Below are positions 297 through 64,000 of a DNA stretch of 64,000 bases, in pieces; position 1 is the first letter of the stretch; every line of letters starts with the position of its first letter. A model generated the notes under the pieces. The model worked only from the letters and a program-made list of their open reading frames with translations. It made no database searches and was not told the DNA's origin. The stretch is from positions 960,001-1,024,000 of the forward strand of contig AL929603.2 in assembly GCA_000002445.1 (NCBI GenBank), written 5' to 3'. The DNA is from Trypanosoma brucei. Lineage: Eukaryota. The position numbers were made by a program, and so were the translations under genes.

Positions 297-349
297 AAAT
301 GAATGAATGAATGAATGAATGTTAAAGAAACCCCGCCCCCCCCCCCCCC
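297..349. repeat. (GAAT)n microsatellite followed by a poly-C run of about 18 nt
   Basis: Direct reading: gaatgaatgaatgaatgaatg then ccccgcccccccccccccc. Confidence 0.9.
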
Positions 350-1191: not shown

Positions 1192-1222
<31 letters not shown>

Positions 1223-1265
1223 GTTGTGACTATTATTATTATTATTATTGTTGTTGTTGTTGTTA
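1192..1265. repeat. (ATT)n / (GTT)n trinucleotide microsatellite
   Basis: Direct reading: attattattatt... interrupted once, then gttgttgttgtt. Confidence 0.9.
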
Positions 1266-1659
1266 TGAATCTGAGTGGAATGCAGCATCAGCAGTAACAT
1301 CAACGAGAGAAAAAGGAAGGGAGATCAAAGAGACATGACAACACGAAATTAAAGAGAAGAAAAATAAAGATAAAAACGAAACAGAAAAGATGAAATGAAT
1401 GAATGAGAGAAAATTGAAGTTATTTCTCTTTTACCCAACGCTTTGGATTTTTTTTTTGTTACAGGTGATTATGGCGAAAAGCGAAAAAGGGAGAAGAGAA
1501 ACAACGGTTGCCAAATCCCAAATCCAAGCAGAGGGTTAAGAAAATAAAAGGAGAAATAAAAAAACAAAAACAAGTTGCCACTGAAGAGTTTTTTAAAACT
1601 TTCTTATGTTTGTCCCTTTGCCATTTCATTATTACCACGATCATCATATACGTATACAT

Positions 1660-1716
1660 GCAAATATATAAATATATAAATATATAAATATATAATTTAT
1701 ATATATATATATATTT
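1660..1716. repeat. (TATAAA)n / (AT)n microsatellite
   Basis: Direct reading: aatatataaatatataaatatataaatatataatttatatatatatatatat. Confidence 0.9.
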
Positions 1717-33368: not shown

Positions 33369-33543
33369 TTTGCTTCTACGTTACCTATTATATTATGTTT
33401 TCTTTTGTTTTTTCGCTTCTTTGTTGCTGCGTCTATTTGGTATAATATGCTTATGTATGTATGTTCATGTATGTGTTAATTTCTCATGAGATGTAAATGT
33501 TTTAAATTATCCCATATAAACTTGTTTTGTTTCTAGATAAGTA

Positions 33544-34662: not shown

Positions 34663-34792
34663 TTCAATGTTATATTTTATGCTACGGTTCTGTTATTGGT
34701 ATTGTGCGTTTGTGATACCCACTGCTTTTTTGTGTAATGGAGGGGATGTGTTTTTCCTCTTTTATATCTTTTGCCACATGTGATTGTAGGTA

Positions 34793-47734: not shown

Positions 47735-47803
47735 TTGGTGGAGCATTTATTTCCATATAGGGTAGCATTTACCTTCAGTGAAATAAAAAGAACAAAGACA
47801 GGG

Positions 47804-50011
47804 ATGGGTGGTGTGGTCGGCAAGATACCTGTTCTGCTTCGTGGTGGTAAGACTGTGGATGGACTTAACTTCCATGGCATGGTACCCATTGATACGGAAG
47901 AGCTTACCGAATTGTTGACTGTGTTAAACTGTCGAGGATACGATACGAAGGTGGAAGTCCATCCTTTACCTGCTGGCTTTCCCCATACGGGTGAGGTATT
48001 CAGCACATATGAACTTGTACTGAGGGGTATAGTGCTTGAACGTGGTGATTTGGAGTTCATAGGAAATTATGCATCACTTAACAAACTGCATTTTATCGAA
48101 TGTTCGGGCTCATGCGACCTGGGTATGTTGTCGGGGCATTCGTTTCTTTCAGAGTTGCGCGTGGACGTTGATGGTGAAGTGAGCCATTATAAAGCGCTGC
48201 GGGAGCTCCCTTCGTTGAGAACCCTTTGGCTGCGCAACAGTAACATGACACTCACTGATTTCTTTCATGTGGGGGAAGTAGATACATTGGAAAGCCTTAC
48301 CCTTCGAGGAGCGTTGAACTTCAAGTGTCTGGAGGCTGTAGCGAGGTTGCCGCGGTTGAGGGCGCTGGATTTGAGTGAGACATTGGTCAATGATAAATGC
48401 CTCCACGCTATAAGCGCCTGCAAAACCCTGCAGCAACTTGGCCTCAGCTCCTGCAAGCGGCTGCGAGATGTTAGCCCCCTTACTCAGATTGCCAGTTTGG
48501 AGGAGTTGAACCTTAGTCACTGTGAAAATCTTAAGGAAGTGGGTGCCCTTTACAGACTTAGCCACTTATTTAGGTTAGACCTTAGGGGTGTGCACCTCAC
48601 TTATCGTGTTGTTTACAGTCTAAGCAAGTGCACGGGACTGACTGAGCTTTACGTTTCATCCTGCGAAGGGTTATCGGGCGTGGCTTGGCTTTCCAACCTT
48701 GAATCGCTAGGGGATTTGGATGTTCAGTGGCGTAAAAACTTGAAGCATACTGGGGACGTTCTTGCCTGCTTGCCGTTGCTACGAGTGCTGGATTTGAGCG
48801 GCACATCGATTAGCAACGAATCCCTTTGGAATATTAGTGAAAGTAAGCTTCTGAGAAGGCTTGACCTCTCGTTCTGTGGCGGTGTGAAAGATATAAGCCC
48901 GATATCAGATATTGTAACACTAGAAGAGTTGAATCTTAAGGGTTGCACGAGTATTACCGAAGGAGTGGATAAACTTGGAAATTTAGTGAATCTTCATATA
49001 CTGAATATGAGTAACACCCCTCTTCAATCCGGTTTTCTCTACAATATCAGCAGCATCGAAAGTCTCGTGGAACTTGATCTTTCTTCATGCTGGGGTGTAG
49101 CATCATTGGATTCTTCAGTGCAGACAGCGGTGCGTATGCGGAAGGGTTCCTATCCATTAGCGCGTCACATCGAAGGCATAAATGCGCTTGGAAGGCTCCC
49201 GAAACTTCGATTGCTAAACATGAGTAGCACTCCCGTAACAGATGAGTGCCTTCATGGATTGCAAATGTGCAAGAGTTTGGTGTGGCTCAATCTTTCTTTA
49301 TGTGCCAACCTCACGGATGTAAGTCCCCTTTCAAGTGTCAAAACACTGGAGGAAGTAGACCTCGGTTGTTGTGGAAACTTGAAGTGGGGTGCAGGTTCCC
49401 TCCGCCGACTGCCACAGTTACGCATCCTGGATTTAAAAAATACAGTCATTACTGATCACTGCCTTGGTGATGTCACTTACGGAGGGGGCGTGGTTAGTCG
49501 AATGTTGGGACGGTGTGGGATGGCTGACCTGAGTTTTTCTCGTTGGTCCATCCGTCGTGGTGGCAATTTGGTGAGGTTGGACCTCTCGTCGTGCTGGGGG
49601 CTCACTGATATTGCCCATCTGACAAGCATAACCACACTGGAGGAGTTGAGATTTACGGGATGCAGAAACTTAAAGGATGGTGTGGATGCCCTCGGCCAAT
49701 TACCAGTTCTTCACCTGCTGGACTTGAGTGGCACTTCCATAACCGATGACTCTCTCCAAGGATTAAGTACGTGTAGAAGCCTCGTCACGCTTAATATTTC
49801 GTCGTGCGCTAACCTAACAGATGTAAGTCCTCTTTCACGGATTTCATCACTTGAGGAACTAAACCTTCAGAAAAGCAAACATATCAGGAGAGGCATCGAT
49901 GAATTAGTGAGCCTTCCGCGTTTGTACCTTGTATATTTGTGTAGAGCAGACTTTAGCCGCGGAGTCGCAGAAGAGTTAGAAAAACGCGGTATTGTAGTTA
50001 AACAAATGTAA
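47804..50011 (+). CDS. Leucine-rich repeat protein, ESAG8-like (LRRP), about 735 aa
   Basis: More than 20 tandem ~25-aa LRRs of the trypanosome ESAG8/LRRP type (LxxLxLSxCxxLTDVSPLSxIxSLEELNLxxC). The N-terminus MGGVVGK has Gly2. No RING finger is visible, unlike canonical ESAG8. Confidence 0.85.
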   Translation: MGGVVGKIPVLLRGGKTVDGLNFHGMVPIDTEELTELLTVLNCRGYDTKVEVHPLPAGFPHTGEVFSTYELVLRGIVLERGDLEFIGNYASLNKLHFIECSGSCDLGMLSGHSFLSELRVDVDGEVSHYKALRELPSLRTLWLRNSNMTLTDFFHVGEVDTLESLTLRGALNFKCLEAVARLPRLRALDLSETLVNDKCLHAISACKTLQQLGLSSCKRLRDVSPLTQIASLEELNLSHCENLKEVGALYRLSHLFRLDLRGVHLTYRVVYSLSKCTGLTELYVSSCEGLSGVAWLSNLESLGDLDVQWRKNLKHTGDVLACLPLLRVLDLSGTSISNESLWNISESKLLRRLDLSFCGGVKDISPISDIVTLEELNLKGCTSITEGVDKLGNLVNLHILNMSNTPLQSGFLYNISSIESLVELDLSSCWGVASLDSSVQTAVRMRKGSYPLARHIEGINALGRLPKLRLLNMSSTPVTDECLHGLQMCKSLVWLNLSLCANLTDVSPLSSVKTLEEVDLGCCGNLKWGAGSLRRLPQLRILDLKNTVITDHCLGDVTYGGGVVSRMLGRCGMADLSFSRWSIRRGGNLVRLDLSSCWGLTDIAHLTSITTLEELRFTGCRNLKDGVDALGQLPVLHLLDLSGTSITDDSLQGLSTCRSLVTLNISSCANLTDVSPLSRISSLEELNLQKSKHIRRGIDELVSLPRLYLVYLCRADFSRGVAEELEKRGIVVKQM

Positions 50012-53000
50012 ACACTTGTACGAATTTAGTGAGTGCTTTCTTAGGGCTGACTCGGGGTTCTGCAGTTCATATCGGCGCTCTGCGTCCCTGTTCCCGTGTT
50101 ACTCTTGGTACAAGCTGCATCTCCCCTTTCTCCACTTCCCCAGCATTAGTTGCTAAATTTATATTCACTTATTATGTCAAAAGATCATTGGAGTGTTGTG
50201 CAGTTGACTTTGTAAACGCCCCTTTTTACAAAAGCATAGGTATGAGCTGGGCGTATCTCTGCGGTGCCAGTGGACGTGTATATGTTGATGGAGCAGTCGG
50301 CTGGTGTCAAACTTCTTTTTTTCTGGCGTTTTCACTTTGGTGCCGTTCTTCCTGGTGGGGCGGTTACCATCCCTCATGATGTACTCGTGTTCCTTCTTTC
50401 CCCTTCTTTTTCTTTTTCCTCACTTGGCGTCTGCCAAATAAAATCCAGGCAATATCCGAGATGCTTGTTGAATTTTCAACCTTACAACTGTGGCTTATAT
50501 GCTGCAGACGGTTAGGGTGCGCCCAAACTTGCCTGGAAATACTAAGACACTATACTTTGTTTTTTTTCTTTATCTATGCGAGTGGGCCTTCCTAAAAAAT
50601 ACGGTACCGTTTCGGCAGGCCCCGTGTGGTGAAGGGCTCCACATTTTGTGTGAGAACTGTCGATATCCCTCTTATCACCTGCTTTGATGTCTTACACATC
50701 TTGTTCTTTGCTTAGTTTTCCTTTTGTTTTATTAGGATCAAACTGTGAATCCAGCAGCTAGCCCACTGTACTGGGGGATTCACCGTGTTTGTTTGCTTGT
50801 GCGTGTGGATCCGTGCTTGTGTTGGGTGCTGTTGCTTTCCGTAAAGTAATCCTGAAACACCAAGGACTGATTTCGTAGGAACCATAAAAGCAATTTTGCT
50901 TCTTTGGAGGTGGGTATCACCATTTTAGTAGTTGCTTAGACACCTGTGATTTCTTTTTTGGGACATATGCGCGTTGCTATACGGTGACTGTTGAGGTTTG
51001 GCTGCCACTGCCTTAAAAAGCAAGAGGCTTTGAGCGGCATCATTCGCTGTGCCATCTTGTAGTGGAAGACTGGAATTTGAGTTTACTAACAACTAATGTG
51101 AGCTGCAAAAGCCGCATAGTTTGTGGGCACGCAAGAGTCTGTACGGTCGATCTTTACTCACCTGAAGTGTTTTTGTTTTGTTTTGTCGGTGTTTTTTTCC
51201 ACTCGATGTGCGGACGTTAAATCCTTCGAAGGGTTGTGTTTTCACACATGTGGTTGAGGTGAATTGTTTAAATTCTGGGATGTTGTGCGTGCAACACTAC
51301 CATCCATATCAGTGGATGGGAATTAACGGGGAGATACCAGGGTTCCTATGCATCATGTGAGCAATTGCTTTCCCTGCTTGCCTTCGGGTAATGACTTCAC
51401 AACGTACCTTGTGTCGTGTTTGGGAAAATATTCTAACATCTCTGAAGGGCGTCTGATGCGCGGGATGAGGGATAACACCATTCATTTTTGGCTTAATGGA
51501 ATAGTGATGGTACATTTATCCGCCATGTTCACACCATGAGAGAGGAAGCTACATCCCAACGAAATCATTCCACCCCCTACGATGGTCGATCATATATGCC
51601 AAAATGTTCTGTGGATCTTTAAATAATGAGTGAAACGTTTACTAAACTTCTGAAACCTTGTGCAGGCGAAATATTGAGTAGATCCAACGGAAATAAGATA
51701 TAGCTTACACACCTCATCGCTAAACGCCACAAAAGTTTCTGTGTGTGTGTGTGGTAAAGGAAACAAACACAGAAAAAAGGTATAGACGAGGAGAACCGTC
51801 TGTATTCTTGTATTTGAACAGTACAAAGTTCTGCGGCGGACACAACAGGTGTTCTGACGTTTTATGGCTGACAGAAGCACAACATGCTCAAGCAAGAAAG
51901 GATTCACCCCTGAAATAGAGGGTGTGGAGCTATGAACATCACAGAAGTAACAAGGCGAGGAAATTGTGCGCTAACATCGCAAGAGAACAAGGGCTCTTTG
52001 TTACACACGAAGGGACAGTACTCTGTAGTGTATACGGATGCAAATGCCCACAGAGCAACCAAGTGGGCGGTGCGCATCAATTAAAACCGGACAGCAACAA
52101 TCCAGCATCAGTACAAAGGCGGGCGCAACTTCAGTGCTCGTGCAAACAACTTAATACTGAAATGCGCGTTCTGCGGCATCTGTTCGGGGATGAAAAAAGG
52201 CCCTGCAATAAGTCAAGGGTTATAACCGTTGCAGTGAAGCGCTATCTGCAGGCATTCACGTCGTCAAAAGACAGTATGAACTTAATAAAAATAATGGAAC
52301 ACAAAATGTCAAAACAAGAACTAATCCAACTGTCCCAACGGATGGAAGAAATGCAGCAGCGGATTCTGTAAAGTGAACGTATTGCAATTTCGTGGATGTA
52401 CGAGGAGAGGCGTTGACTTTGAAAGCAAAAGCTCGACACTATCAAAAATCAACCGAAGGGAAACACCGCAAGTACAGAGCCATGATGGTAAGTGACAGAG
52501 GAAAGTGAAATACTACCAACTGATGCAACAGTTACTGTTGATGAAGGGGGAGCCCAATGCCCTCAGTACAAGCATTAACACGCATTGGTGAGTGGCGTGA
52601 TCAACCACCTCAAGAAAAATGTAGAACACGTACCTCGTTACCAAATATCAGAGTCCAACAAAATCGTCACGGAGCTTCGGTATTGAAGTATTGAGTCTGC
52701 GCTTGTTAAGCCCTCATTGCTATAGAAAAAACAAAATAACACCTTAACTTTTACTTGCAGTTGAGGAGCTGCCAACATAAGCCGGTGCTTTCTTCATGCG
52801 AAGGAAACATAACGCCTCAAGGGCTGAGAGTGTATCAAGTGTTGACATGCCTCCACCTTCGCCCAACGGAAAAGGGCGTAGGAGTTTCGAACTGAATTCC
52901 ACTAAACTCGTCACCGCGACGAGAGACTGACAACTTCCAAAAAACTGGCGGTGTGGTTTCCAAAGTTGGTACGATTGGAACGGGTTCTAGCCTTTACGCC

Positions 53001-53264
53001 TTTGCTGCCAACAAGTTTGTACGGGCTGTGCGGTGCGATGTATTGATTACGCACATCCCACAACCCAGCAGGTGCGAGATCGATGAGTAGTCCTAAGTTT
53101 TTCTTAACTTCCAAATATCCAGAATGGGAAAAGAACCCTCCCAGCGGAAATGTTTCTAAGCGTGCTCTGTTTATAATTTTTACACGAACGAAGCGAGAAA
53201 ATGGCGACTTATCTTCGTAACTACTTTTTAAGAAAGGAGTTTAATTACATAAAGTGGAACAAAA

Positions 53265-54302
53265 ATGTGGAAGAAATCAGTGGAATTAATTGTGGGCGTG
53301 ACTTTAGTAATGACATATGTGTCTAGCGCGGAGCAGGTTATACTTAATACGAAGGAGTTCCAAACGTTGTGCGGATTTGTTAGGTTGACAGAACAAATAA
53401 ATGAGCTACTGGAGCGAATGAAGGGAAAGCCTGGAGTAGATGTGTTACCTCTACAAAAAAAAGTCAAAGACATATTGTTTGGAACGCGAATTGGAGATGT
53501 GGGAAAAATGAATTGGGGATATTATAGAGAACTGGATTGTGGCCAAGATAGTGGAAACCATCAAACTAAAGGGGGAGAAGCTCTCATGAAAGATCTTGTT
53601 TGCTTGTGCGAAGGAACGGACCAGCAATCGCCACCCGGGGGACTTTGTTATGAGGGAAACACCAAAAAAAATAGCCGCGGCGGATGGAATAATGCAGGAG
53701 CCCACAGAAACACATGGACCAGTTTGAAAAGTGAATGTACAAGGGAACATGGAGAAGGTCTGTTAGCCGAGAGTGAATTTCAAGAGATGAAAAAGCAACT
53801 CAAAGAGCGGCTAAAGGAGCGTAAAGATATTCGTACAAGCGCACGTGAAGGCACGTTTTATACTTATGGGGGTAACACAAGCAATGGATTGCAGACGTGC
53901 AGTGGGGCAAAATCAGACAACGACGGCATTTGTGTAATGTATCCAAAGGAATCTGATGGGGACAACACGAGTGGTATTGAATGGCTTAATGAGCTTGAAG
54001 GTCTGGTGAAAGAAGTTGAGAAAATGAACAAGGATGAAAGTGCAGGTGGAAACACAAAACCAAGTACGGACGGGCAACCAAGCATGGAAAAAAAGCCAAA
54101 GTCAAATACAAAGCCAAGCACAGGGGAGAACTCACCAGCTAAGGGGTTAGAAGGATCACAAAAAGATGGAAACCCAAATGCGCAAACAACTACCAGTACT
54201 GAGAAAGATGCCACTACGGCAAGACCACCAGAAGAACAAAAGAGTTCGTCCAAAATTATTTTACAATTTCTATGGATATTTTTATTTTGGTTGTTTGTAT
54301 AA
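53265..54302 (+). CDS. Putative GPI-anchored surface protein distantly related to family B (345 aa)
   Basis: Signal peptide. Shares Cys motifs with family B (FQTLCGFVRL versus FETLCKIYRI; LVCLCEG versus FFCLCVGEA). Low-complexity T/K/P/S-rich stalk with a repeated NTKPST motif. Hydrophobic C-terminus ILQFLWIFLFWLFV. Confidence 0.6.
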   Translation: MWKKSVELIVGVTLVMTYVSSAEQVILNTKEFQTLCGFVRLTEQINELLERMKGKPGVDVLPLQKKVKDILFGTRIGDVGKMNWGYYRELDCGQDSGNHQTKGGEALMKDLVCLCEGTDQQSPPGGLCYEGNTKKNSRGGWNNAGAHRNTWTSLKSECTREHGEGLLAESEFQEMKKQLKERLKERKDIRTSAREGTFYTYGGNTSNGLQTCSGAKSDNDGICVMYPKESDGDNTSGIEWLNELEGLVKEVEKMNKDESAGGNTKPSTDGQPSMEKKPKSNTKPSTGENSPAKGLEGSQKDGNPNAQTTTSTEKDATTARPPEEQKSSSKIILQFLWIFLFWLFV

Positions 54303-55394
54303 ATTGGCTCACAATCCACCATCACGTTTTTTTTTGGAAAATTCATGTCGGTAGAGGAAGTAAAAAGTAGCTACCGTTGCAGGGACCAGGAGACAGGGTG
54401 GAGGGAATGGAGGAATAATTTTTCTTTTTTACGCCCATTTAAAAAGTTTCTCAAACTGGATAATTTCAATGCTCAATAAAGAAAATAATCCGTTCACACT
54501 TATTAGTAACAACAAAATTTGGGAAGAGTAAAAGCAACAGGGAGTGAAACGTAAACAAATAGGGAATAAGCTTTATGACTTTTGAGGTTAAGCGAATACA
54601 GATTTTAATATCGTTGTTGTGGAATTATGGAATCTGGAAAGACAAAATATATTAAAAGAACCGCGTTACATGTACACAGGAAGTGAATCTTACGAGGCTT
54701 GCAATTGGGCCCATTCAAACATAAGAAACAGAAACAGTGTGACCTCTCTTTGGAAGCTTAGTTGCAGCATTTAAGAATGGAGAGCAAATAGATAGTTATG
54801 TATACAGGAAACCACTGAAACTACGGTCAAGCCCAAGCGTGTTGGTGTGGCGATGAAACCGCCTGCAAGTGGTGAAGGAAGCGCGAACAAAAGGATTCAC
54901 GAACTTCGATCAAGTCTCAATTTAAAAAAAAATTGAAAGAACTAGATGTGTGTTTTTTCATTTAATTGGTAGGAGAGTGAAGCCACCAAAAGACATATTA
55001 TCTAAGTTGATTTTTATTTGTGTAACCCTGGAGTTCGAGGTATATGGAAAGTTGGGAATCGCGCGAGGAAGCTGAGGAGCATTCAAGGGAACTATGGGTA
55101 GAAGAGAGACTTGAATACACTGACGTGCGTAAATAATGCCTAACGAAAATGAGGTGAGCGTGTACTGAAAGCTATGGAAGGGGTACTCGTGGCGTTTGAG
55201 AGGCTTCTTCATGGCATGGAATAACTGGAATGACATGTGATAAATTAATTTACATGTGTTTACTCCGATACCAAAATAAAATTATAATTGATTACCATAT
55301 AGCATGAATAGACAAATGCATGTACATTGGTCTACTTTTTGTTTATTTTTAGTGTTTTGTACCATTTGTTTGGCTCAACCCCCGGAGGAAGGAA

Positions 55395-56174
55395 ATGCTC
55401 GGGCTTACAACAATCTTATTTTCGACACTAATAGTGATTGCATCAAGCGGTGAATCGAAAGCTTCAGTGGGCACTTCGGTCGCCGAGCAGAGATGCGATG
55501 GATACTGGGACTCCTCCAGTGGGGGCGGACGGTGCCGGCCTTGGAGTACGGGAGCAGTCGATCCAAAGACTGTAAGCACGCGGCAGACTCCAGTTTCCCC
55601 AGTTCTTAAAAGCCAGAAACCAGATGTGACCGGTGACGATGCCCAAGTACACAAAATGCAGGAGGGTGCTGCATCGAGTCCAATCGTAGAGAGTGGAGCT
55701 AGTCAATCGGCTCCTGGTACTGAGGAAACCTCTAACAAAGTGACCGTGCAACTAAGTGGTGTTGCAATTGGTGGCAGGAGTGACAAGATTGAACAGCCAT
55801 CTCTCAGCTCCCGAATCTCCGAGCCGGCGGCAAACGCGGCGACTGACTACAGCGAACAGAAAGTGGGTCAAGAAGGGCAGAGATTAGGAACTGCAGAGGG
55901 ACTAGAAGGCGCGAAATACAACGGCAGAGATGGTGGGAAAGAGGGGAAAAAGGTTTCAGAGGAGCAAACACCAGGGCCTGATAGCCGGCACGCCTTGCAG
56001 ATGTCGATGCGGGGCGCAGCTTCGCCGCGAGGGCATAGCCATATGGCGGGAGTCACGACAGATGATTTGGATGCGCAGGACCCAGCACAAAACAGTGCCC
56101 ATGAGAGGAGAAGCGCGGCGCAAAAAAGATGTGCAGTAGTGGTCGCCGCAGCGTTCAGCTTCATATGCCTTTGA
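55395..56174 (+). CDS. Small putative secreted/GPI-anchored Ser/Gly/Ala-rich protein (259 aa)
   Basis: N-terminal signal peptide MLGLTTILFSTLIVIASSG. Disordered, acidic, S/G/A-rich body. Hydrophobic C-terminus CAVVVAAAFSFICL. Confidence 0.5.
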   Translation: MLGLTTILFSTLIVIASSGESKASVGTSVAEQRCDGYWDSSSGGGRCRPWSTGAVDPKTVSTRQTPVSPVLKSQKPDVTGDDAQVHKMQEGAASSPIVESGASQSAPGTEETSNKVTVQLSGVAIGGRSDKIEQPSLSSRISEPAANAATDYSEQKVGQEGQRLGTAEGLEGAKYNGRDGGKEGKKVSEEQTPGPDSRHALQMSMRGAASPRGHSHMAGVTTDDLDAQDPAQNSAHERRSAAQKRCAVVVAAAFSFICL

Positions 56175-56689
56175 AACCCGTTGCTACAAGTCCGTGCATA
56201 AGTGTGCAAATGCCCAGTAAGGCGGGCGATGCGTGACACAGGGGCTGGACGGAGAGTCAGTAACTAAATCACAGCTTCGTTTACGAGAGAAACACGTGTG
56301 AAGCGTGATAACGACATAATTTTTGAAAGGACAGTGTGACAACAGGCGTGAATAACCCTAATGTAATCATGAGTAACGTGCAAGAGTGGAGTGAATGTCC
56401 TGAAAGGGAGGGAACCAAGTTAAAGTTCGTAATCTCATACAGCGAAAATGACACAATCGCAAGGGAATAAGCAGTAGACGGGTTCGATTAAACTAATCGG
56501 GTAAAACTCAGGTTCAATACTATTGGGAAGTTTGTGGTTGATGAACTTTTCAAAAGTGTAATGGACGTTGCTGCATATCAAAAGTTAACCTTATTGCGAG
56601 GATGCTGATGGCAGTCGTGAGGGCAAGCTGGATGAAATCGTAAATTTTAATTGTGGGGAATTTAGAGACCACCTTGTTAATCATATTTG

Positions 56690-56862
56690 ATCCCCTCATC
56701 GCACCTTTTGCTGCTGGACAACCGCCTTCAGTACTTGCTGAAATGATGTCCAATATCACTTCACTTTACTTTCGTTTCAACGAAGTCCACAGGAGTTTCA
56801 CTTCGCTGCTGTTCGACACGGGTAGCATTGATAATGTGAAAAGCACTAATTCTACCATCTGA
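56690..56862 (+). pseudogene. 3' fragment (about 57 codons) of a family-A gene
   Basis: It encodes ...PLIAPFAAGQPPSVLAEMMSNITSLYFRFNEVHRSFTSLLFDTGSIDNVKSTNSTI*. It is followed by the same ~1.2-kb spacer found after A1 (30758..32003). The upstream sequence is unrelated. Confidence 0.85.
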
Positions 56863-58091
56863 CAGATACTTTCAGATATTTTCCCTCGTTCCATAATAAA
56901 AATAACTTTACGCGTGCGTGCTCTCATCCTTTTCAACTGATAATTTCTTTATCTGGAGTGTCCCTATCTTGGTTATCTTAATTGTGAGTGGTAGTGACTG
57001 TGGTTGTCGCTCCACCATTTGTGTTGTAGGGTAGTGGGGTGTGTTAATTCTTTCTGCATGTGAAGTGAGGAAGAAATGTTTGGTTTTATGCCCACAAGAG
57101 TAGTTTTGTTGCCATTTATTTTTTGGTTATGCAAAGAACCTGTGTGCAGTGAAGATAAATGAGAATTCATTGAAAGGATGAGCGGTTACGTATGTAACAT
57201 CCGTTTTTTTCTACCAGCGTATCTCTAAGGATGGTGACTGGTGGGTGTGGCAAATGATCTAAATGGAGGTAAAAACAGGGAGGGTCACTCGTTATTTTGG
57301 AACTGTTCTATTTTTTGGTGTGTTGGTGGCTAACATAATATCCCATCATGTTACCATATAATCAGGGTCTTCAGTAATGAGCATAATTGTTTGAGACGGT
57401 GTTTTGAGAATGCAACTTTTATCTTTTCTAGTGTATGGCTTAAGAAAATGGATGGCAAGCGGTTGTGCATGTTCACAAAGAGAGGAGCAAAGGCTGTTGT
57501 CAATACCTGTATGAAAGGAGGAGGATGTGCTAAATGAAGCTCAGTAGCAAAGTTGTGTGCATTGGATAAGGGTAAGACATACATGCAAATTAAGCGCGTA
57601 ATCTATTAGAGAGTAAAGGCATAAAGTAACAACTGAAAGTAATGGGGTCAGAGGAGGGTATGGAAAAACATAGCATGAATGTGCAAGTACTCATTATGGT
57701 AGTGGAAGTGTTCATCTGAAGAGTAGATGAGCTCATTGAGAAACTCAAGAAAGCGGTAGCACAACTAAGTTGGGAAAGTGTAATTACCTGGCATGGAGAG
57801 TAAGGAAGTGAATATGTTGGATGAAGAAATTAGGAGAAATGGTGTAACGAAAAGGAGAATACCGCAGTTGTGAGGAAGTCTAACGTTGATATCCAGCTTC
57901 AGGCAAGGGAACTCATGTAACTGCGTGTTTCCGACGTGTGTTACGTTGTGTTGGGTGCTGCTGTAATTGGTTTGTGTCAGGCACTTTCAAGATCCGATAT
58001 TTGCTTGTATATGTCTGTTGAGTGTGTCTGCCAATATCAGTAATGACTGTAATGATAAGTTTGTGATTCTCTCTTTTTGACTAATTGATGT

Positions 58092-59468
58092 ATGAACAGG
58101 ATCACGATGAGGTATGAAATAGTGTTTACTGTTGGGCTGTTTGCGACTGTTTTATCTCCTTCCTTTCAGGGCGATATGGTTGGGTACAAGTGGGCCACAG
58201 AATCTATAAACTGGAGTGCGATTACCAGGCTCGTCGGCGTCAACGACAAGTACCACAACGCTGGTGAGTTCGAGACACTGTGCAGGATTTACAGAATTAC
58301 GCAGGCTGAAGCTCCACAACCTTCCTTTGAGAATCGCGAAAAGGAAGGAGAGATTATGAATAAGTTGGAGGAAATGGTCAAACAGACGGCGGGCGCTGGT
58401 GTTAATAACAGTTCAAGCAAGTCAGGTAGCAGCACAACAGCATATCAGGAGATAAGGAAACTACTTGAAAAAGCGAAAAAACTGAAGGAAGAAATTGAGG
58501 CGAATAGGACAAAAGCCTTATACGCAAGTCGTTCTGCTGAAGATAATATGCTGAGAGCTGTGTATGGCGACGCTGTGGATGTTGCAAGAAATGAGAATAA
58601 AACTCTAGAGCAAGCCATGAGGGGAAACAAATCACTGCTGTTCAATAATGTCGAAAATGCGGGCACGAGCTGCGGTTCTTATGGAGACAAGCTAGTTGGA
58701 AAGACACTAATTAATGACTTTTTCTGCCTATGTGTGGGAGAGGCTAAGAAAGTACAAATCAAGAAAAGTGTAGCAAAAGATGAATATGACCCAACCTATG
58801 ACGGTGTTTATAATGGGTTTAATTGTCCCTGCAAGGATGAGATGAGGAGACCGAGAAGTGGTAGTTGGACCATGATGGCTGAATTTTGTGTAAGTGGGGA
58901 GGATAATTGTAACCCTGAAAACATAAAATACAACTATACTGAGGCATGGGATGTGATCAGCAAAGCTTGTGTATACAAGAATATTGCATCGAATGTGAAA
59001 ACCTTAAAGAGTGCACTAGCTCACTTTGATTCACTAGTAAATTTGGAACAGGATAAATATCAGGTGAGGGGTATTCTTGGGTATGCAAATGCTGAAGAAA
59101 ACACTGATCACATATGTACGGGTCATACTGCTGGATTCACATGTGTTAGTTACAATCACACACTTGAAAATGGTGGGATTCCATGGTACAATCGTCTTAC
59201 TAACGCTACTGAGCAACTGCAAGAAATGGATAAATATGCCAAGGAGGCTGACAGTCATCTTCATGAGTTGGAAGAATACCAACATGAGGCAGAGGAAATA
59301 TTTCTTGAGGTGAAGCTAGGAGGTGATGCGGAGCTATGGAAAAGTAGCCAAGGTAAGGGTGATGGTGAGGGTGATAATACAGTGGTAGATAATGATGGAC
59401 TTACTCATTTGAATATTGCAACTGGGGGTTTTACATTATTAGTTTTATCTCTTATTTGTACGCTTTAG
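58092..59468 (+). CDS. Family B putative GPI-anchored surface glycoprotein, copy B2 (458 aa)
   Basis: Paralog of 32004..33368. Identical C-terminal 130 aa and GPI-type tail. N-terminal and mid-protein patches diverged. Alternative start at 58107. Confidence 0.8.
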   Translation: MNRITMRYEIVFTVGLFATVLSPSFQGDMVGYKWATESINWSAITRLVGVNDKYHNAGEFETLCRIYRITQAEAPQPSFENREKEGEIMNKLEEMVKQTAGAGVNNSSSKSGSSTTAYQEIRKLLEKAKKLKEEIEANRTKALYASRSAEDNMLRAVYGDAVDVARNENKTLEQAMRGNKSLLFNNVENAGTSCGSYGDKLVGKTLINDFFCLCVGEAKKVQIKKSVAKDEYDPTYDGVYNGFNCPCKDEMRRPRSGSWTMMAEFCVSGEDNCNPENIKYNYTEAWDVISKACVYKNIASNVKTLKSALAHFDSLVNLEQDKYQVRGILGYANAEENTDHICTGHTAGFTCVSYNHTLENGGIPWYNRLTNATEQLQEMDKYAKEADSHLHELEEYQHEAEEIFLEVKLGGDAELWKSSQGKGDGEGDNTVVDNDGLTHLNIATGGFTLLVLSLICTL

Positions 59469-59644
59469 TTTGCTTCTACGTTACCTATTATATTATGTTT
59501 TCTTTTGTTTTTTTCGCTTCTTTGTTGCTGCGTCTATGTGGTATAATATGCTTATGTATGTATGTTCATATGTGTGTTAATTTCTCATGAGATGTGAATG
59601 TTTTAAATTATCCCATATAAACTTGTTTTGTTTCTAGATAAGTA

Positions 59645-60739
59645 ATGAAGGTGGTATCACTTTTTCTTGCAGCGTGTCTGGTAATATTGGGTGCTGCCAG
59701 TAAGGCAGTGACGGAGCAGCCTTCCGGTAAGGCCATGACACTCAAGGGAGCTGAAACATTATGCAATCTCAGTCATGCCTTGAGGGTTGTGGGTGCTAAG
59801 ACTCAGGACAAACAAAAGAATGCGACAGAAATGGTGGATAAGTTTCGGGAGTGGAGACATCAGCATGGTGTAAAGGGGAGGACATGGAAGGCAATAGTGC
59901 AGGGTTTGGAGAAGATAGGTGTTGTTAATGAAAGTTACATGGAAGGTATAAAGAAAACATATGCGAAAATGGAAAAGATAATGAACAATACAGACAAGGC
60001 TCTGCAGGTAATGGATACTAGTTTTTTAAACATTGTAAGAGTTTCCTATCATGTTGTGAATGCATCACTGTCAATAGGACAAGTATTGAGGGATCTGGTA
60101 GTATTGTTTGAGCAAACAAAGGGAAGTGAAAATAGTTGGTGCTGTTTGGTAAAAACTGCCTCTTCAGGAAATGGATGTGGAAGTGATGGTAAACGCGAGT
60201 TGGCTAGCGCTCCAGAAGAGTGTAATATGTCTGTTACAAAGGATATGTCAGATGATGGTGTGTTGACTACGCTAAATAATTATAAAACCGATCAACCGGT
60301 TGAATTAACGGACAATAACAGCGCTAAGTGCTGGATCATGGGTACGGAAGAGGTTGCAAATGGAGGAGCTGGATCTTTTATAGTGGGAACTACTGGAGGT
60401 TTCGTTACCTATAGCCAAGGTTCTGCCGTTATCATGAAATCTAGTGACATGGTGCTCAAACTCATCAGCAATTACACTTCAATCAGAGACGGGTATGAAA
60501 GTATTACACAACAGTACCGTGATGTAGAGCCAACTCTTACTTCCTTTGCCGAACTTGAAAATAAACTAAAAAAATTGTTAACTCAGAGTCCGATGGTGCG
60601 TAGGTATTTCAAGGAGAATGGAAGGAAACGCAAGGGAACTGTCGGTGACGATGATGTTATAGATGAAGAAGGATTCACAATGAGGAAGCAACATACCCTA
60701 ATGGGTTTAATGGCTTTTGCAGCAGTTTTGGTTATGTGA
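59645..60739 (+). CDS. Family C putative GPI-anchored surface protein, copy C2 (364 aa)
   Basis: Paralog of 33544..34662. Shorter (GS)n linker. One divergent patch. Confidence 0.8.
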   Translation: MKVVSLFLAACLVILGAASKAVTEQPSGKAMTLKGAETLCNLSHALRVVGAKTQDKQKNATEMVDKFREWRHQHGVKGRTWKAIVQGLEKIGVVNESYMEGIKKTYAKMEKIMNNTDKALQVMDTSFLNIVRVSYHVVNASLSIGQVLRDLVVLFEQTKGSENSWCCLVKTASSGNGCGSDGKRELASAPEECNMSVTKDMSDDGVLTTLNNYKTDQPVELTDNNSAKCWIMGTEEVANGGAGSFIVGTTGGFVTYSQGSAVIMKSSDMVLKLISNYTSIRDGYESITQQYRDVEPTLTSFAELENKLKKLLTQSPMVRRYFKENGRKRKGTVGDDDVIDEEGFTMRKQHTLMGLMAFAAVLVM

Positions 60740-60871
60740 TTCAATGTTATATTTTATATGCTACGGTTCTGTTATTGGTATTGTGCGTTTGTGATACCCA
60801 CTGCTTTTTTGTGTAATGGAGGACATGTGTTTTTCCTCTTTTATATCTTTCGCCACATGTGATTGTAGGTA

Positions 60872-61855
60872 ATGAAAGTTACGATAGCGGAATTGGTTGT
60901 TTTGTTATTTTCTGTAATTTGTATTGATGGGAAGGAGGAGAATGGGTGCACGTTGATAACAGATTATCACGGTGACGCACCTTTAAGTGAGTCCGTATGT
61001 TATCTCAGTTGTCTTTCAGATGCATTAAATAAATTATACGCTGATGGAGAGAACAAACTGTTTGTGAATGAGGAAGTGTATGCAAATGCATTTCGTATAT
61101 TGGATGATATGGAAGGAAGAACAGGTGAAAGTGTTAGATATTTGAGTATTATTAGCGGTGTAATGGAAGGGAAACATGATAAATTGAAAAAGCTTATATC
61201 GTATGGAAATGCAATGGGGGACCTTGTAGCTAAGGCAGGTGGATTATTTGCTGAGGTTAATGAAAGTGTGAGGGCAGTGAGGAAAGAAATACCTGGTGCC
61301 CTTATAAAAGTGAATAAATATTATACGGCTATTGCTGTGATCACAAGGACTGTGTGGGATGATGTTGAGGCATTGGAGCGTGACAGTGATCCGAACTGCC
61401 ATGGCGAAAAAATTAAAAATGTTGGTGAGTTCCAAGTTACGTGTGGCGAACATTTCTGCCCACTAAAAGAAGGTGTTAACGAAAGTACTCTTCAGAAATA
61501 TAAGGATGGATGCCTTGAAATAAATGTTCAAGATAAGTCTGGCCAAATAAGTGAATGCCTTAACTTACCAAGGAATAGTTTGTACAAAAATGGCGCAGTA
61601 AAGTATTCAAGTGACGGAACGAATTGGTATGGAAACGGTAATACTTATTTTCAACTCAAACTCCACGTTCATAGTATGCTTTCCCCTCTCACAATTCCCC
61701 TTGGTGCTGGCCAACCACCTTCTGCACCCCTAGACATGATGGCTAGTATTACTTCCCTGTACTCTCGCTTCAACGAGATACACAAAAACTTTACTTCATT
61801 GCTACTTAACACCAATTTTACTGGAATTGTGAATAGTAGTAATTCCGATTTTTAA
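60872..61855 (+). CDS. Family A secreted/surface protein, copy A3 (327 aa), most divergent paralog
   Basis: Same signal peptide and first ~50 aa as A1 and A2. Conserved central block (AGGLFAEVNESVRAVRKEIPGALIKVNKYYTAIA). Otherwise about 55-60% identity. Confidence 0.8.
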   Translation: MKVTIAELVVLLFSVICIDGKEENGCTLITDYHGDAPLSESVCYLSCLSDALNKLYADGENKLFVNEEVYANAFRILDDMEGRTGESVRYLSIISGVMEGKHDKLKKLISYGNAMGDLVAKAGGLFAEVNESVRAVRKEIPGALIKVNKYYTAIAVITRTVWDDVEALERDSDPNCHGEKIKNVGEFQVTCGEHFCPLKEGVNESTLQKYKDGCLEINVQDKSGQISECLNLPRNSLYKNGAVKYSSDGTNWYGNGNTYFQLKLHVHSMLSPLTIPLGAGQPPSAPLDMMASITSLYSRFNEIHKNFTSLLLNTNFTGIVNSSNSDF

Positions 61856-64000
61856 CAAATGCATGTACGTACATTTCTTTACCTGTTAGCCAACGCGTTT
61901 GCATGCATGTCTGTGTTTCTGTGTGCCCGTGCTCGCTTCCCTCATAAGTTTATCTTGCCTTTCCGTTGCTGCATTTTTATGGGAAAAACTGCACAGTTGC
62001 GCGCTGGCAACGTAATAATATCTTGAACACGGATATTCATGTTTTCGACTACATGAGCAGTAAACATCTTGTCTGTTGCTCACATTCCGGAGGTTGCCTG
62101 ACTTTGTAGAAATGCCAAGCGGCCGCGGTATGTGCCTGTGGTCTCTGACAACGCCGATCACCTTGTTGTGGCGGCAGTGCCTGATACTCCGGCAGAGAGG
62201 AAAACAATATTTAGATTATCACCTGTGATATCGAGATGAAGTTGGTGGTCAATACGTGGTGACCAAAGCAGCCACGGCCAGAACCACTAGGGGTTCTTGA
62301 AGAAGCTATATTCTTTGTGTGCGTGTTCCTGCAGTTGTAAGCGCGCGAGCACGTTTTGTGTTAATTGAATCCTCTCGCTCTGAAGTGGGGGTGCCGGACA
62401 GATCCCAGTCTCCACTCATCACGTAAGCCAGCGGAGCAACGGGAGTTTCCACCACGGAGAATGACCTTCACTTTCGAAAGTGTTTCACAAAGATGTGATA
62501 GCCTTTGAGCGCACCCAAGGGACGCGCCTGAAGGTTGTGAACGTCACACTGTTCACCCTCTACGGTCGCAAGCACACAAGGTTTTGGCCCGTTTCAAAAT
62601 GAAAGGCTTCGAGGTGTCCGCACCCCTTAGGAGCATGATGGTTGTCGTCAAATGTCCAAAACAAATGAAGCCTTAGAAGGTGTAACCGCTACACTGCTGC
62701 GTACAAACGGCAAGGAGCTCGTCCTATCCTCTGCAGCATATTTTCCTGAAGGCTTCAACGCGATTACGGGAAGGCTGAAGCAACTGAGCGAGAATTTAGA
62801 GCCGCTGGTTATCAGTAAACGTTAACACCTACCATGATGTTTGAGAGTTCCATGTTTCAAAGGATCTGTGTGGTGGAATTCGATAGTTAACTAGCGTCTG
62901 TAACGGAGCTTCAGAGTTTCCCATAATGAAGCTCCAGCCCAGTAGAGATTAATTGGAGGCTGATTTCCTTCCGCAGGCATTACCTGAAATAGGGATGGCG
63001 AGGTAAATTAGCAGATGGCGGAGAATAGCTTCATTTACGATCACAGTTGTGTGGCTCTCGATGCTGAAGCAGTGAATGGCATGCAGGGAATATGTACGCC
63101 GCATACTCTTTGGGTCAGTGTATTTGTGGAAGAGTGAAAGCTGGCTGATTATATGTAATGAAAAGCAGGTGTCCTTTAGAAGGACAGAAAGGTGGTGAAG
63201 GGAGTGGATGAACTCAATGGAGCTATGCAGCTCTTTTTCTGGTCTCGTCGAGAACGATCCGTGGCGGCACGGGCACCGCACCACCAAACTGGGCGCCGAA
63301 CCGACAGTATTCGAAAAAGAAAATAAGACGATACTTGGACTTGACGAAGAGTACGGCTTTCACTTATTCAAGAAGGAACCCGCTTAATGAAACAGCTTTA
63401 GGGGCGTGGAGAGAGGACGATCCCGCGCCATCTACCGCGGAAAGAAAAAATTGGGTGCGCCTTAAACCAGCGCTCATACAGGTACCGTCATCCAGCATCG
63501 CTCTCGCGCAACGGGCAATCGCTCACGAACGGCAAGACGGCGGGTGCAAACCTTGGCGGATATTTATGCGAAGACTCTTGTAGTCACCCGGATCTGCATC
63601 CGATGGCAACGAACACTCTATTTGAACCGTTTGCACGCACCAAAATGACACAGGTCCTTTGGGACCTTTGCAGATGCGGGACGGCGGGGAGACGATGAGA
63701 TTCAGTGCGACGATTTGAAGGAGATGGACAGAGTCGGAAGATGGTATTAACAGCAACTCCGAAACCATTTCCTGGAACAGGCAAAACCCTTGAGTAGTGG
63801 AAGCGTGGAATCAACATTTGCTCCTGGAACAAAGCAAGCCGATTGAGGGGATTAAATCATTTTCCGTTGTGACGCTGGATGTCGCTGTGAATAAACTGAG
63901 GGAGAAGATGCTGATCTGGAGGTTTAAGAACCGTGTATAAGGATGGTTGCTGGTACAATAGTTCAATTTTGTTCCACAATAATCTATAACCAGCTTCGCT

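What the first reader, a model, noticed from the sequence alone, without database searches (positions are those of the whole stretch)
47735..61855. Gene order resembles a bloodstream VSG expression site: ESAG8-like LRR protein upstream of 455-aa GPI, 370-aa GPI and 325-aa secreted-type genes (candidate ESAG2-ESAG11-ESAG1-like order) at a chromosome-internal locus
In canonical T. brucei bloodstream expression sites, the LRR protein ESAG8 is followed distally by ESAG3, ESAG2, ESAG11 and ESAG1, then the VSG. Here an ESAG8-type LRR gene (47804..50011) lies upstream of cassettes in the order B (about 455 aa, GPI-type), C (about 370 aa, GPI-type), A (about 325 aa). As far as I recall, those sizes and anchoring match ESAG2, ESAG11 and ESAG1. 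If so, this would be a chromosome-internal, RNA-polymerase-II-transcribed paralogous block of expression-site genes (GRESAGs) kept in expression-site order. That bears on the origin of expression sites and on ESAG diversity available for recombination. The family assignment is an inference from memory and not verified.
Basis: inference. Interest (0 to 1): 0.75.

Follow-up and report, generated by a model that had tools for sequence, protein, structure and literature searches.

The report
Known ESAG2-ESAG11-ESAG1 island, T. brucei chromosome 1
This stretch is an already annotated, non-telomeric cluster of surface-protein genes on Trypanosoma brucei chromosome 1: its last three genes really are relatives of ESAG2, ESAG11 and ESAG1 in expression-site order, but the upstream leucine-rich-repeat gene is an ordinary conserved gene and not an ESAG8 relative.

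Summary
All ten ORFs tested match T. b. brucei TREU927 chromosome 1 proteins exactly. They are already annotated as LRRP, VSG-related, ESAG9, ESAG2, ESAG11 and ESAG1.

- B is 72-78% identical over its full length to expression-site ESAG2.
- C is 80% identical to the founding ESAG11.
- A matches Pfam ESAG1 at 1e-116.

The three genes form a roughly 5-kb module. It occurs twice in the window (89% nt identity, spacers included). It also occurs, aligned through its spacers, at five or more other non-telomeric loci.

The "ESAG8-like" part fails:
- The LRR protein has no RING.
- It is 26% identical to ESAG8, in the repeats only.
- It ranks about 87th among LRR relatives.
- It has a full-length, positionally conserved orthologue in T. 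congolense.

Nothing like 70-bp repeats follows ESAG1.

Non-telomeric ESAG paralogues (GRESAGs, "VSG/ESAG islands") are published. So is bloodstream-form up-regulation of two chromosome-1 ESAG2/ESAG11 clusters, which by order and naming I take to be these genes.

Verdict: real, ordinary and already known. One side observation: an LRR gene with a RING-type cysteine pattern does sit upstream of a 2-11-1 module, but on chromosome 3.

The parts
47804..50011 (+). Leucine-rich repeat protein (LRRP), 735 aa. It is a conserved core gene, not ESAG8-type, and not part of the ESAG module.
   Evidence: Exact match to CAJ16709 'LRRP, putative'. Pfam finds LRR families only, with no RING, and a RING regex finds nothing. 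It is 26% identical to ESAG8, in the repeats only. T. congolense has a 45%-identical full-length orthologue in conserved position.
53265..54302 (+). VSG-related (VR) gene, 345 aa, with a b-type VSG domain, a signal peptide and a hydrophobic C-terminus.
   Evidence: Pfam VSG_B 6.5e-28. Exact match to CAJ16712 'VSG-related, putative'. Hydropathy.
55395..56174 (+). ESAG9-family gene, 259 aa.
   Evidence: Exact match to CAJ16714 'ESAG9'. No Pfam family. Hydrophobic N- and C-termini.
56683..56853 (+). 3' remnant of an ESAG1 gene (aa 269-325). It marks the truncated upstream unit of a former tandem 2-11-1 array and the start of the duplicated module.
   Evidence: tblastn 54% identity, E 3e-14. The duplication boundary lies at 56693.
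56693..61859 (+). The 5.2-kb ESAG2-ESAG11-ESAG1 module (copy 2), spacers included.
   Evidence: 89.3% nt identity to 30588-35771. It aligns through its spacers to L001, L002, L003, L004 and L007 at 72-89%.
58092..59468 (+). ESAG2-family gene (non-ES copy, GRESAG2-type), 458 aa. Inferred to be Tb927.1.5100.
   Evidence: Pfam VSG_B 5e-27. Exact match to CAJ16716 'ESAG2, putative'. It is 72-78% identical to expression-site ESAG2 proteins CAQ573xx-574xx.
59645..60739 (+). ESAG11-family gene, 364 aa. Inferred to be Tb927.1.5110.
   Evidence: 80% identity over 100% coverage to the founding ESAG11 protein Q9Y021/CAB43348. Exact match to CAJ16717.
60872..61855 (+). ESAG1-family gene, 327 aa. Inferred to be Tb927.1.5120.
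   Evidence: Pfam PF03238 ESAG1, E 1.4e-116, 388 bits against a cutoff of 27. Exact match to CAJ16718.
29443..35771 (+). Upstream copy of the module with a partial extra unit: ESAG11 3' remnant 29443-29637, ESAG1 29771-30757, ESAG2 32004-33368, ESAG11 33544-34662 and ESAG1 34793-35767.

Best explanation
The region is one of the known non-telomeric 'VSG/ESAG islands' of T. brucei, on chromosome 1.

Its last three genes are non-expression-site paralogues of ESAG2, ESAG11 and ESAG1. ESAG2 is a GPI-anchored protein of the b-type VSG fold, ESAG11 is GPI-anchored and ISG-like, and ESAG1 is a signal-anchored or secreted glycoprotein.

These three genes travel together as a single module of about 5 kb. 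The module arose as a tandem array; truncated neighbouring units are still visible at both copies in the window. It has been spread by segmental duplication to several chromosomes and also forms the distal end of bloodstream expression sites. The shared order therefore comes from common descent of the whole module, not from selection for order and not from chance.

Copies have since been patched by gene conversion. Spacers are 96-98% identical, while coding parts are a mosaic of near-identical and 54-82% identical patches.

Inferred rather than shown here:
- The genes are read as part of the long + strand polycistron that begins among housekeeping genes.
- Their bloodstream-form mRNA enrichment comes from post-transcriptional control.

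The LRR gene upstream is an older resident of the site and unrelated to the module's history.
For: Identity of the locus: 10 of 10 ORFs match TREU927 chromosome 1 proteins exactly.

Family membership:
- ESAG1: Pfam E 1e-116.
- ESAG11: 80% identity over full length to Q9Y021.
- ESAG2: 72-78% identity to CAQ57xxx expression-site proteins, plus a VSG_B domain.

Module behaviour:
- 5.2-kb duplication within the window.
- Remnants of ESAG11 at 29443-29637 and of ESAG1 at 56683-56853, upstream of each copy.
- The same order at T. b. gambiense chr 11 (L001), chr 3 left end (L007) and T. b. equiperdum CM010678 (L004). Partial or cyclically permuted copies at L002 and L003.
- Alignments run through the spacers.

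Mosaic structure: spacers 96-98% identical against CDS 77-93%, dS 0.14-0.61, dN/dS 0.30-0.45, patchy sliding identity. This fits the recombination signal Jackson 2013 reports among non-ES copies.

LRR gene:
- No RING.
- ESAG8 is only the ~87th representative hit, at 26% identity.
- T. congolense has the orthologues of the 271-aa gene and of the LRRP in the same order.

Context:
- Every convincing ORF of 200 aa or more lies on the + strand, and housekeeping genes occupy 2.7-27.6 kb.
- There is no tandem repeat after ESAG1.

Literature:
- ES order and the 'ESAG2-11-1 cluster'.
- Non-ES copy numbers: ESAG1 21, ESAG2 18, ESAG11 12.
- 'VSG/ESAG islands'.
- Tb927.1.4890/4900 and Tb927.1.5100/5110/5120 up-regulated in bloodstream forms.
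Against: - No expression-site DNA could be fetched. Homology of the module to the ES 2-11-1 cluster therefore rests on protein identity and gene order, not on spacer alignment.
- Whether the ES module derives from core copies or the reverse is unresolved. In a crude NJ tree without support values, two CAQ-accession ESAG2 proteins group with the non-ES copies.
- Pol II transcription and post-transcriptional control are taken from the literature and from strand layout, not tested here.
- The mapping of Tb927.1.5100-5120 to these ORFs is inferred from order and product names.
Confidence: 0.9

Rival explanations
1. One reading: the whole stretch from the LRR gene to ESAG1 is a paralogous copy of the distal half of an expression site (ESAG8-ESAG3-ESAG2-ESAG11-ESAG1), kept in ES order at a core locus.
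For: - An LRR gene on the same strand lies 8 kb upstream of a genuine 2-11-1 module.
- ESAG8 and this LRRP share the same LRR type.
- An LRRP carrying a RING-type cysteine pattern lies upstream of a 2-11-1 module on chromosome 3, so such blocks can exist.
Against: - There is no RING.
- Identity to ESAG8 is 26%, confined to the repeats, and more than 80 other representative LRR proteins score better.
- The LRRP and its upstream neighbour are syntenic with T. congolense. This gene therefore has a positional orthologue outside T. brucei, whereas ESAG lineages are reported to be T. brucei-specific.
- VR and ESAG9 genes and an ESAG1 remnant lie in between.
- The duplicated unit starts at 56693, 6.7 kb past the LRR gene.
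- Upstream lie housekeeping genes, not ESAG4/5/6/7.
Confidence: 0.04
2. The island is a decayed former expression site, or a piece copied from an ES into the chromosome. On this view the ES module is the parent and the core copies are derived.
For: - Two CAQ-accession ESAG2 proteins cluster among the non-ES copies in the NJ tree.
- The VR + ESAG9 pair that precedes the module here is also reported inside one expression site, BES11/TAR122.
- The locus lies in the distal part of the chromosome arm.
Against: - Jackson 2013 reports reciprocal monophyly of ES and non-ES copies for ESAG1 and ESAG2, and no exchange between ES and non-ES copies.
- The window has no 70-bp repeats and no VSG. No tblastn or Pfam search for VSG sequence was run on 61856-64000.
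- The main ES ESAG2 clade is separate from the window copies.
Confidence: 0.1
3. The order match is coincidence: three unrelated surface-protein genes that happen to lie in the same order as in expression sites.
For: None beyond the prior that surface-protein gene families cluster in trypanosome genomes.
Against: - The same order and orientation occur at seven places: two in the window, plus L001, L004, L007 and, as partial copies, L002 and L003.
- The nucleotide alignments are continuous through the intergenic spacers.
Confidence: 0.01

Closest known systems
Genes related to ESAGs (GRESAGs), also called non-ES ESAG copies; 'VSG/ESAG islands' of T. brucei core chromosomes (Jackson et al. 2010, PMC2854126; Jackson et al. 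2013, PMC3605285)
   Same: - A non-telomeric cluster of ESAG- and VSG-family genes set among core genes.
- Conserved with orthologous sequence in another subspecies: 89-96% nt identity to T. b. equiperdum chromosome 1.
- A recombination mosaic among paralogues.
   Different: Nothing of substance. This is an instance of that category and is annotated as such in the reference genome.
The distal 'ESAG2-11-1 cluster' of bloodstream VSG expression sites (Hertz-Fowler et al. 2008, PMC2567434)
   Same: - The same three families, in the same order and orientation.
- 72-82% (ESAG2) and 80% (ESAG11) protein identity.
   Different: - The locus is not telomeric.
- Within the window there are no 70-bp repeats downstream and no VSG-sized ORF. 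No ESAG8 or ESAG3 lies upstream.
- ESAG11 is intact here, whereas Hertz-Fowler report strict conservation of ESAG11 as a pseudogene in most BESs.
- Transcription is presumably by Pol II within a polycistron rather than from a Pol I ES promoter (not tested).
The bloodstream-up-regulated ESAG2/ESAG11 clusters of Veitch et al. 2010 (PMC2837033): Tb927.1.4880-4900, Tb927.1.5100-5180 and Tb11.01.6210-6250
   Same: Clusters 3 and 4 of that paper are, by order and product names, the two cassettes of this window. The chromosome 11 cluster corresponds to L001 (PAG, PAG, ESAG2-like, ESAG2, ESAG11, ESAG1 fragment).
   Different: That paper reports expression. It does not discuss the ESAG1 member or the identity of the order with expression sites.
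ESAG8 and its closest core relatives, Tb927.1.3670 and Tb927.3.580 (Jackson et al. 2013)
   Same: The same class of cysteine-containing leucine-rich repeats.
   Different: - The window LRRP lacks the RING that Jackson 2013 calls diagnostic.
- It has orthologues in T. congolense, T. grayi and T. vivax.
- It starts with Met-Gly, as does its T. congolense orthologue.

Membership tests
ESAG2 family (b-type VSG-fold GPI protein) | VSG_B domain and full-length similarity to ESAG2 proteins encoded in expression sites | tested here: met
   Pfam VSG_B 5e-27. 71.5-78.4% identity over the whole length to eight CAQ573xx-574xx/B3GV.. ESAG2 proteins. That these accessions are the Lister 427 BES clones is inferred from the accession series and the names.
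ESAG2 family (b-type VSG-fold GPI protein) | N-terminal signal peptide and C-terminal GPI signal | tested here: met
   Hydrophobic N-terminus (KD 2.5) and C-terminus ending ...GGFTLLVLSLICTL (KD 2.6). This is a hydropathy test only; no dedicated predictor was run.
ESAG sensu stricto (any of ESAG1, ESAG2, ESAG11) | Located in a telomeric VSG expression site and co-transcribed with the VSG | tested here: not met
   Housekeeping genes lie upstream. There are no 70-bp-type repeats downstream. The orthologous locus lies about 68 kb from the end of the T. b. equiperdum chromosome 1 assembly. These are therefore ESAG-related (GRESAG) copies.
ESAG11 family | Full-length similarity to the founding ESAG11 (Redpath et al. 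2000; Q9Y021) | tested here: met
   80% identity, 100% coverage, E 1e-189. Accession CAB43348.
ESAG11 family | Signal peptide and GPI signal | tested here: met
   N-terminal KD 3.05. The C-terminus ...LMGLMAFAAVLVM has KD 2.6.
ESAG1 family | Match to Pfam PF03238 (ESAG1) above the gathering score | tested here: met
   388.3 bits against a cutoff of 27, E 1.4e-116, profile positions 1-226 of 227.
ESAG8 | N-terminal RING (C3HC4) zinc finger | tested here: not met
   - No RING family in Pfam for the whole protein or for its first 132 aa.
- The regex finds nothing, and there are only 3 Cys in the first 130 aa.
- Genuine ESAG8 (P0188) gives a RING regex hit at residues 10-45 and a weak zf-C3HC4_3 hit at 8.7e-5, below Pfam's gathering score.
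ESAG8 | Closest relatives are ESAG8 sequences | tested here: not met
   - No protein named ESAG8 among the 62 word-indexed hits at E 1e-10 or better.
- ESAG8 is about the 87th representative, at E 1.4e-30.
- BLASTP gives 26% identity, in the repeats only.
- The best hits are a T. congolense orthologue (45%, full length) and other LRRPs.
ESAG8 | Nuclear localisation signal | not tested
   No NLS predictor was available. The protein starts Met-Gly-Gly, which suggests possible N-myristoylation rather than nuclear targeting (inference).
ESAG8 | T. brucei-specific lineage (Jackson 2013) | tested here: not met
   The T. congolense contig CAEQ01000379 carries orthologues of the 271-aa gene (32%) and of the LRRP (45%) in the same order.
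Bloodstream expression site (as a locus type) | ESAG3 between the LRR gene and ESAG2 | not testable with these tools
   No ESAG3 sequence could be obtained. No ORF of 150 aa or more lies in 50.0-53.3 kb or 56.2-58.1 kb.
Bloodstream expression site (as a locus type) | 70-bp repeats and a VSG downstream of ESAG1; telomere | tested here: not met
   There is no tandem repeat in 28-64 kb apart from a TTA run at 28175. The largest ORF in the 2.1 kb after ESAG1 is 112 aa.
Bloodstream expression site (as a locus type) | Pol I-type ES promoter upstream | not tested
   No promoter sequence was available for comparison.
VSG/ESAG island of a core chromosome (Jackson et al. 2010) | Non-telomeric VSG/ESAG-family genes flanked by core genes and conserved as orthologous sequence between subspecies | tested here: met
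   Core genes lie upstream. T. b. equiperdum chromosome 1 has the same gene series at 89-96% nt identity.

The most novel reading that the evidence does not exclude
The link between an LRR gene and b-type-VSG-family genes could be older than expression sites. Three observations point that way:
- In T. congolense the orthologue of this LRRP is also followed by a VSG_B-domain ORF.
- On T. brucei chromosome 3 an LRRP with a RING-type cysteine pattern sits 3.2 kb upstream of a complete ESAG2-11-1 module that points to the chromosome end. This LRRP is presumably Tb927.3.580, which Jackson 2013 names among the closest ESAG8 relatives.
- LRRP and VR gene identifiers are neighbours elsewhere, for example Tb927.3.1490 and Tb11.02.1564/1566.

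The distal half of the expression site (ESAG8-[3]-2-11-1) might then have been copied as a block from such a core locus, and the chromosome 1 locus would be a sister arrangement.
Probability: 0.1. Interest if true: 0.5.

Novelty: already known. Interest (0 to 1): 0.15.

Why it matters
It matters little beyond confirmation. The genes have been annotated as ESAG2, ESAG11 and ESAG1 since the chromosome was sequenced. Non-ES ESAG copies have been counted and placed in phylogenies, and bloodstream-form expression has been published for the chromosome-1 clusters I equate with these genes.

Two points of modest use:
- The three genes move as one roughly 5-kb module with conserved spacers. This explains why the order is the same in expression sites and in core islands.
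- The better candidate for an 'ES-order block including an ESAG8 relative' is on chromosome 3, not here. Anyone tracing the origin of expression sites should start there.

Tried and rejected
- Exact-protein look-ups of TREU927 genes in the contig index failed for P0020, P0021 and P0010. The window's coordinate on chromosome 1 could therefore not be read directly. T. b. equiperdum and T. b. gambiense loci were used instead.
- Hall et al. 2003, the chromosome I paper, is not held under either id tried. What I say of it is from memory and is not used as evidence.
- I fetched a genuine ESAG8 locus (L008, at the end of T. b. equiperdum CM010679) hoping for a real ES reference. It has ESAG4-ESAG8 followed by a retroelement, with no 2-11-1 within 10 kb, so it was of no use.
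- Expression-site ESAG2 and ESAG11 proteins have no contig on record, so no ES DNA was available for spacer comparison.
- Rfam found nothing in the window.
- The T. congolense VSG_B ORF downstream of the LRRP orthologue shows no significant pairwise similarity to the VR or ESAG2 genes here. Positional orthology cannot be claimed.
- I considered overall positive selection as the cause of coding regions being more divergent than spacers. I rejected it because dN/dS is 0.30-0.45 and dS itself is high. A gene-conversion mosaic fits better.
Full report
**What the window is.** Ten ORFs from the region were looked up by exact sequence, and all ten are proteins of Trypanosoma brucei brucei TREU927 on a 1,064,672-bp record, chromosome 1. 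The sources name them as follows:
- 47804-50011: 'leucine-rich repeat protein (LRRP), putative'
- 53265-54302: 'VSG-related'
- 55395-56174: 'ESAG9'
- 58092-59468: 'ESAG2'
- 59645-60739: 'ESAG11'
- 60872-61855: 'ESAG1'

A second set lies upstream: ESAG1 29771-30757, ESAG2 32004-33368, ESAG11 33544-34662 and ESAG1 34793-35767. The first 27 kb of the window hold housekeeping genes, including an arginine methyltransferase, a SET/MYND protein, FAM91, Vps39, a hydrolase and a SpoU methylase. Every convincing ORF of 200 aa or more is on the + strand.

**Check of the observation.**
- B (458 aa) and C (364 aa) have hydrophobic N- and C-termini, as expected for a signal peptide plus a GPI signal.
- A (327 aa) has only the N-terminal hydrophobic stretch.

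**Family tests, independent of the database names.**
- A matches Pfam ESAG1 (PF03238) at 388 bits, E 1.4e-116.
- C has no Pfam family above threshold. It is 80% identical over its whole length to Q9Y021/CAB43348, the protein on which ESAG11 was founded.
- B has a VSG_B domain. It is 71.5-78.4% identical over its full length to eight ESAG2 proteins with accessions CAQ573xx-574xx. From the accession series and the names I take these to be the Lister 427 expression-site clones of Hertz-Fowler et al. 2008.

So the assignment B = ESAG2, C = ESAG11, A = ESAG1 is right. It matches the conserved expression-site order '...ESAG8, ESAG3, ESAG2, ESAG11 and ESAG1' (PMC2567434). Because the locus is not an expression site, the genes are ESAG-related (GRESAG, non-ES) copies rather than ESAGs in the strict sense.

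**Why the order is the same.**
- A self-comparison shows a 5.2-kb duplication, 30588-35771 against 56693-61859, at 89.3% identity including the intergenic DNA.
- Each copy is preceded by the truncated end of another unit: an ESAG11 3' remnant at 29443-29637 plus a full ESAG1 before copy 1, and an ESAG1 3' remnant before copy 2. Both copies are therefore pieces of a former tandem (2-11-1)n array.
- The same unit, in the same order and orientation, is found elsewhere:
  - T. b. gambiense chromosome 11 (L001): PAG, PAG, ESAG2-like, ESAG2, ESAG11, ESAG1 fragment, then a convergent strand switch.
  - The left end of T. b. gambiense chromosome 3 (L007).
  - T. b. equiperdum CM010678 (L004): ESAG9, ESAG1 remnant, ESAG2, ESAG11, ESAG1, the same layout as copy 2 here.
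  - In partial or cyclically permuted form, L002 and L003.
- Nucleotide alignments to these loci run through the spacers, at 72-89% over up to 6.3 kb.

The order is thus inherited with a roughly 5-kb module that has been copied around the genome. It is not a coincidence. Nor does it show that this particular locus mirrors an expression site.

**Mosaic structure.** Between the two copies in the window, the spacers are 96-98% identical. The coding regions are less alike: ESAG11 93%, ESAG2 89%, ESAG1 77%.
- dN/dS is 0.30-0.45 and dS is 0.14-0.61.
- Sliding identity alternates between 96-100% and 54-82% patches.
- This is the signature of gene conversion among paralogues. It agrees with the significant recombination signal that Jackson et al. 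2013 report among non-ES copies of ESAG1, ESAG2 and ESAG11.
- The same paper states that ES and non-ES copies do not exchange.

**The LRR gene is not ESAG8-like.**
- Pfam finds only LRR families in it, and nothing in its first 132 residues.
- A RING pattern search is negative, and there are only three cysteines in the first 130 residues.
- I recovered genuine ESAG8 through an exhaustive search of 1.84 billion representatives. P0188 (630 aa) has a RING pattern at residues 10-45, and its cluster holds CAQ57457 and CAQ57303 'ESAG8'. It is only about the 87th hit (E 1.4e-30).
- It aligns at 26% identity through the repeats only, starting at ESAG8 residue 115.
- The best relatives of the window protein are a full-length T. 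congolense orthologue (45%), a T. grayi protein (38%) and T. vivax proteins (about 30%).
- On the T. congolense contig the orthologue of the 271-aa gene (window 44308-45123) precedes the LRRP orthologue, as it does here. The gene is thus shared and syntenic with T. congolense, whereas ESAG lineages are reported to be specific to T. brucei.
- Jackson et al. 2013 name other genes, Tb927.1.3670 and Tb927.3.580, as the closest ESAG8 relatives, with RING and NLS as the diagnostic features.

**Other expression-site features.**
- No tandem repeats of the 70-bp kind follow ESAG1.
- The largest ORF in the remaining 2.1 kb is 112 aa.
- ESAG4/5/6/7 relatives are absent upstream.
- I could not test for an ESAG3 remnant or an ES promoter, because no reference sequences were available.

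**Position on the chromosome.** In the T. b. equiperdum chromosome 1 assembly the orthologous LRR gene is at 897-899 kb of 967 kb. The same VR-ESAG9-remnant-ESAG2-ESAG11-ESAG1 series follows, and then another VR-like gene. The locus is non-telomeric but lies in the distal part of the right arm.

**How it most likely works.** The proteins are surface or secretory glycoproteins.
- Gadelha et al. 2015 localised ESAG2 to the cell-body membrane.
- They localised ESAG11, tagged as a chromosome-internal copy, to the cell body and flagellum.
- Veitch et al. [quoted passage not shown] By order and product names these are the two cassettes of this window; that mapping is my inference.
- Transcription by Pol II as part of the long + strand unit, with stage control through the well-conserved spacers (UTRs), is an inference from layout and from general trypanosome biology. 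It is not shown here.

**Comparison with what is known.** Chromosome-internal ESAG paralogues (GRESAGs) are textbook knowledge.
- Jackson et al. 2010 describe 17 'VSG/ESAG islands' on core chromosomes.
- Jackson et al. 2013 count 21, 18 and 12 non-ES copies of ESAG1, ESAG2 and ESAG11.
- I did not find a sentence in the held papers saying that the core islands keep the 2-11-1 order. It is evident from the consecutive gene identifiers in published tables and from the reference annotation.
- The finding is therefore a correct rediscovery of an annotated feature with one wrong component.

**A side result.** On T. b. gambiense chromosome 3, 29-50 kb from the left end and pointing towards it, lies an LRRP whose N-terminus carries a RING-type cysteine pattern.
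- It is 98% identical to TREU927 AAZ10095 and is presumably Tb927.3.580.
- It aligns to ESAG8 from residue 21.
- It sits 3.2 kb upstream of a complete ESAG2-ESAG11-ESAG1 module.
- The RING in that protein rests on a pattern match and on Jackson et al.'s statement. Pfam gave no RING hit at E 0.01 or better.

Whether this block and the ES segment ESAG8-3-2-11-1 share ancestry as a block is open. It is the only part of this work that might interest a specialist.

Noticed in passing
L007 3068-12204 (T. b. gambiense FN554966, chromosome 3, 29-50 kb from the left end, reversed): An LRRP with a RING-type cysteine pattern sits 3.2 kb upstream of a complete ESAG2-ESAG11-ESAG1 module pointing to the chromosome end. 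It is 98% identical to TREU927 AAZ10095 and is presumably Tb927.3.580, named by Jackson 2013 as a closest ESAG8 relative.
   Followed up: partly
window 53265-56174: A VSG-related gene followed by an ESAG9-family gene sits directly upstream of the 2-11-1 module. Hertz-Fowler 2008 report that in BES11/TAR122 the ESAG2-11-1 cluster is replaced by a VR gene and a full-length ESAG9. The two may be related, but no BES11 sequence was available to test this.
   Followed up: no
L006 6985-8201 (T. congolense CAEQ01000379): Downstream of the T. congolense orthologue of the LRRP lies a VSG_B-domain ORF (Pfam 1e-24), possibly frameshifted at its 5' end. Its position is analogous to the VR gene of the window. 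It has no significant pairwise similarity to the VR or ESAG2 genes.
   Followed up: partly
window 56693-61859 vs 30588-35771: The intergenic spacers of the duplicated module are more conserved (96-98% nt) than the coding regions (77-93%). Within genes, identity is mosaic and drops to 54-65% at the 3' end of ESAG1. dN/dS is 0.30-0.45. This points to a gene-conversion mosaic, and perhaps to constraint on the UTRs.
   Followed up: partly
window 47804 and L006 2605: The LRRP starts MGGVVGK and its T. congolense orthologue starts MGNVLAS. The conserved Met-Gly start suggests N-myristoylation. The automatic ORF call from TTG at 47735 is probably too long.
   Followed up: no
window 36000-42000: About 6 kb has no convincing ORF and negative GC skew, inside a + strand cluster that otherwise has positive skew. 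It is conserved at 96% in T. b. equiperdum. Its nature is not determined; it could be a degenerate retroelement or a long UTR.
   Followed up: no
window 24448-25912: Two overlapping ORFs in different frames (24448-25101 and 25055-25912) each hit part of the SpoU methylase profile. The first hits the C-terminal part and the second the N-terminal part. This could be two paralogous genes, or the mechanical ORF starts could be wrong.
   Followed up: no
L005/L009 (T. b. equiperdum CM010672, chromosome 1): At the orthologous locus the ESAG2 and ESAG9 genes are split by frameshifts, while ESAG11 and ESAG1 are intact. These are either pseudogenes in that strain or long-read assembly indel errors.
   Followed up: no
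window 1-2000: The first 2 kb are very AT-rich (GC 0.29, against 0.40-0.50 elsewhere). Not examined.
   Followed up: no
L008 (T. b. equiperdum CM010679, last 23 kb): A genuine ESAG8 gene (84% identical to P0188) follows an adenylate-cyclase (ESAG4-type) gene at the very end of a chromosome assembly. It is followed by retroelement ORFs (endonuclease, reverse transcriptase) instead of ESAG3-2-11-1.
   Followed up: partly
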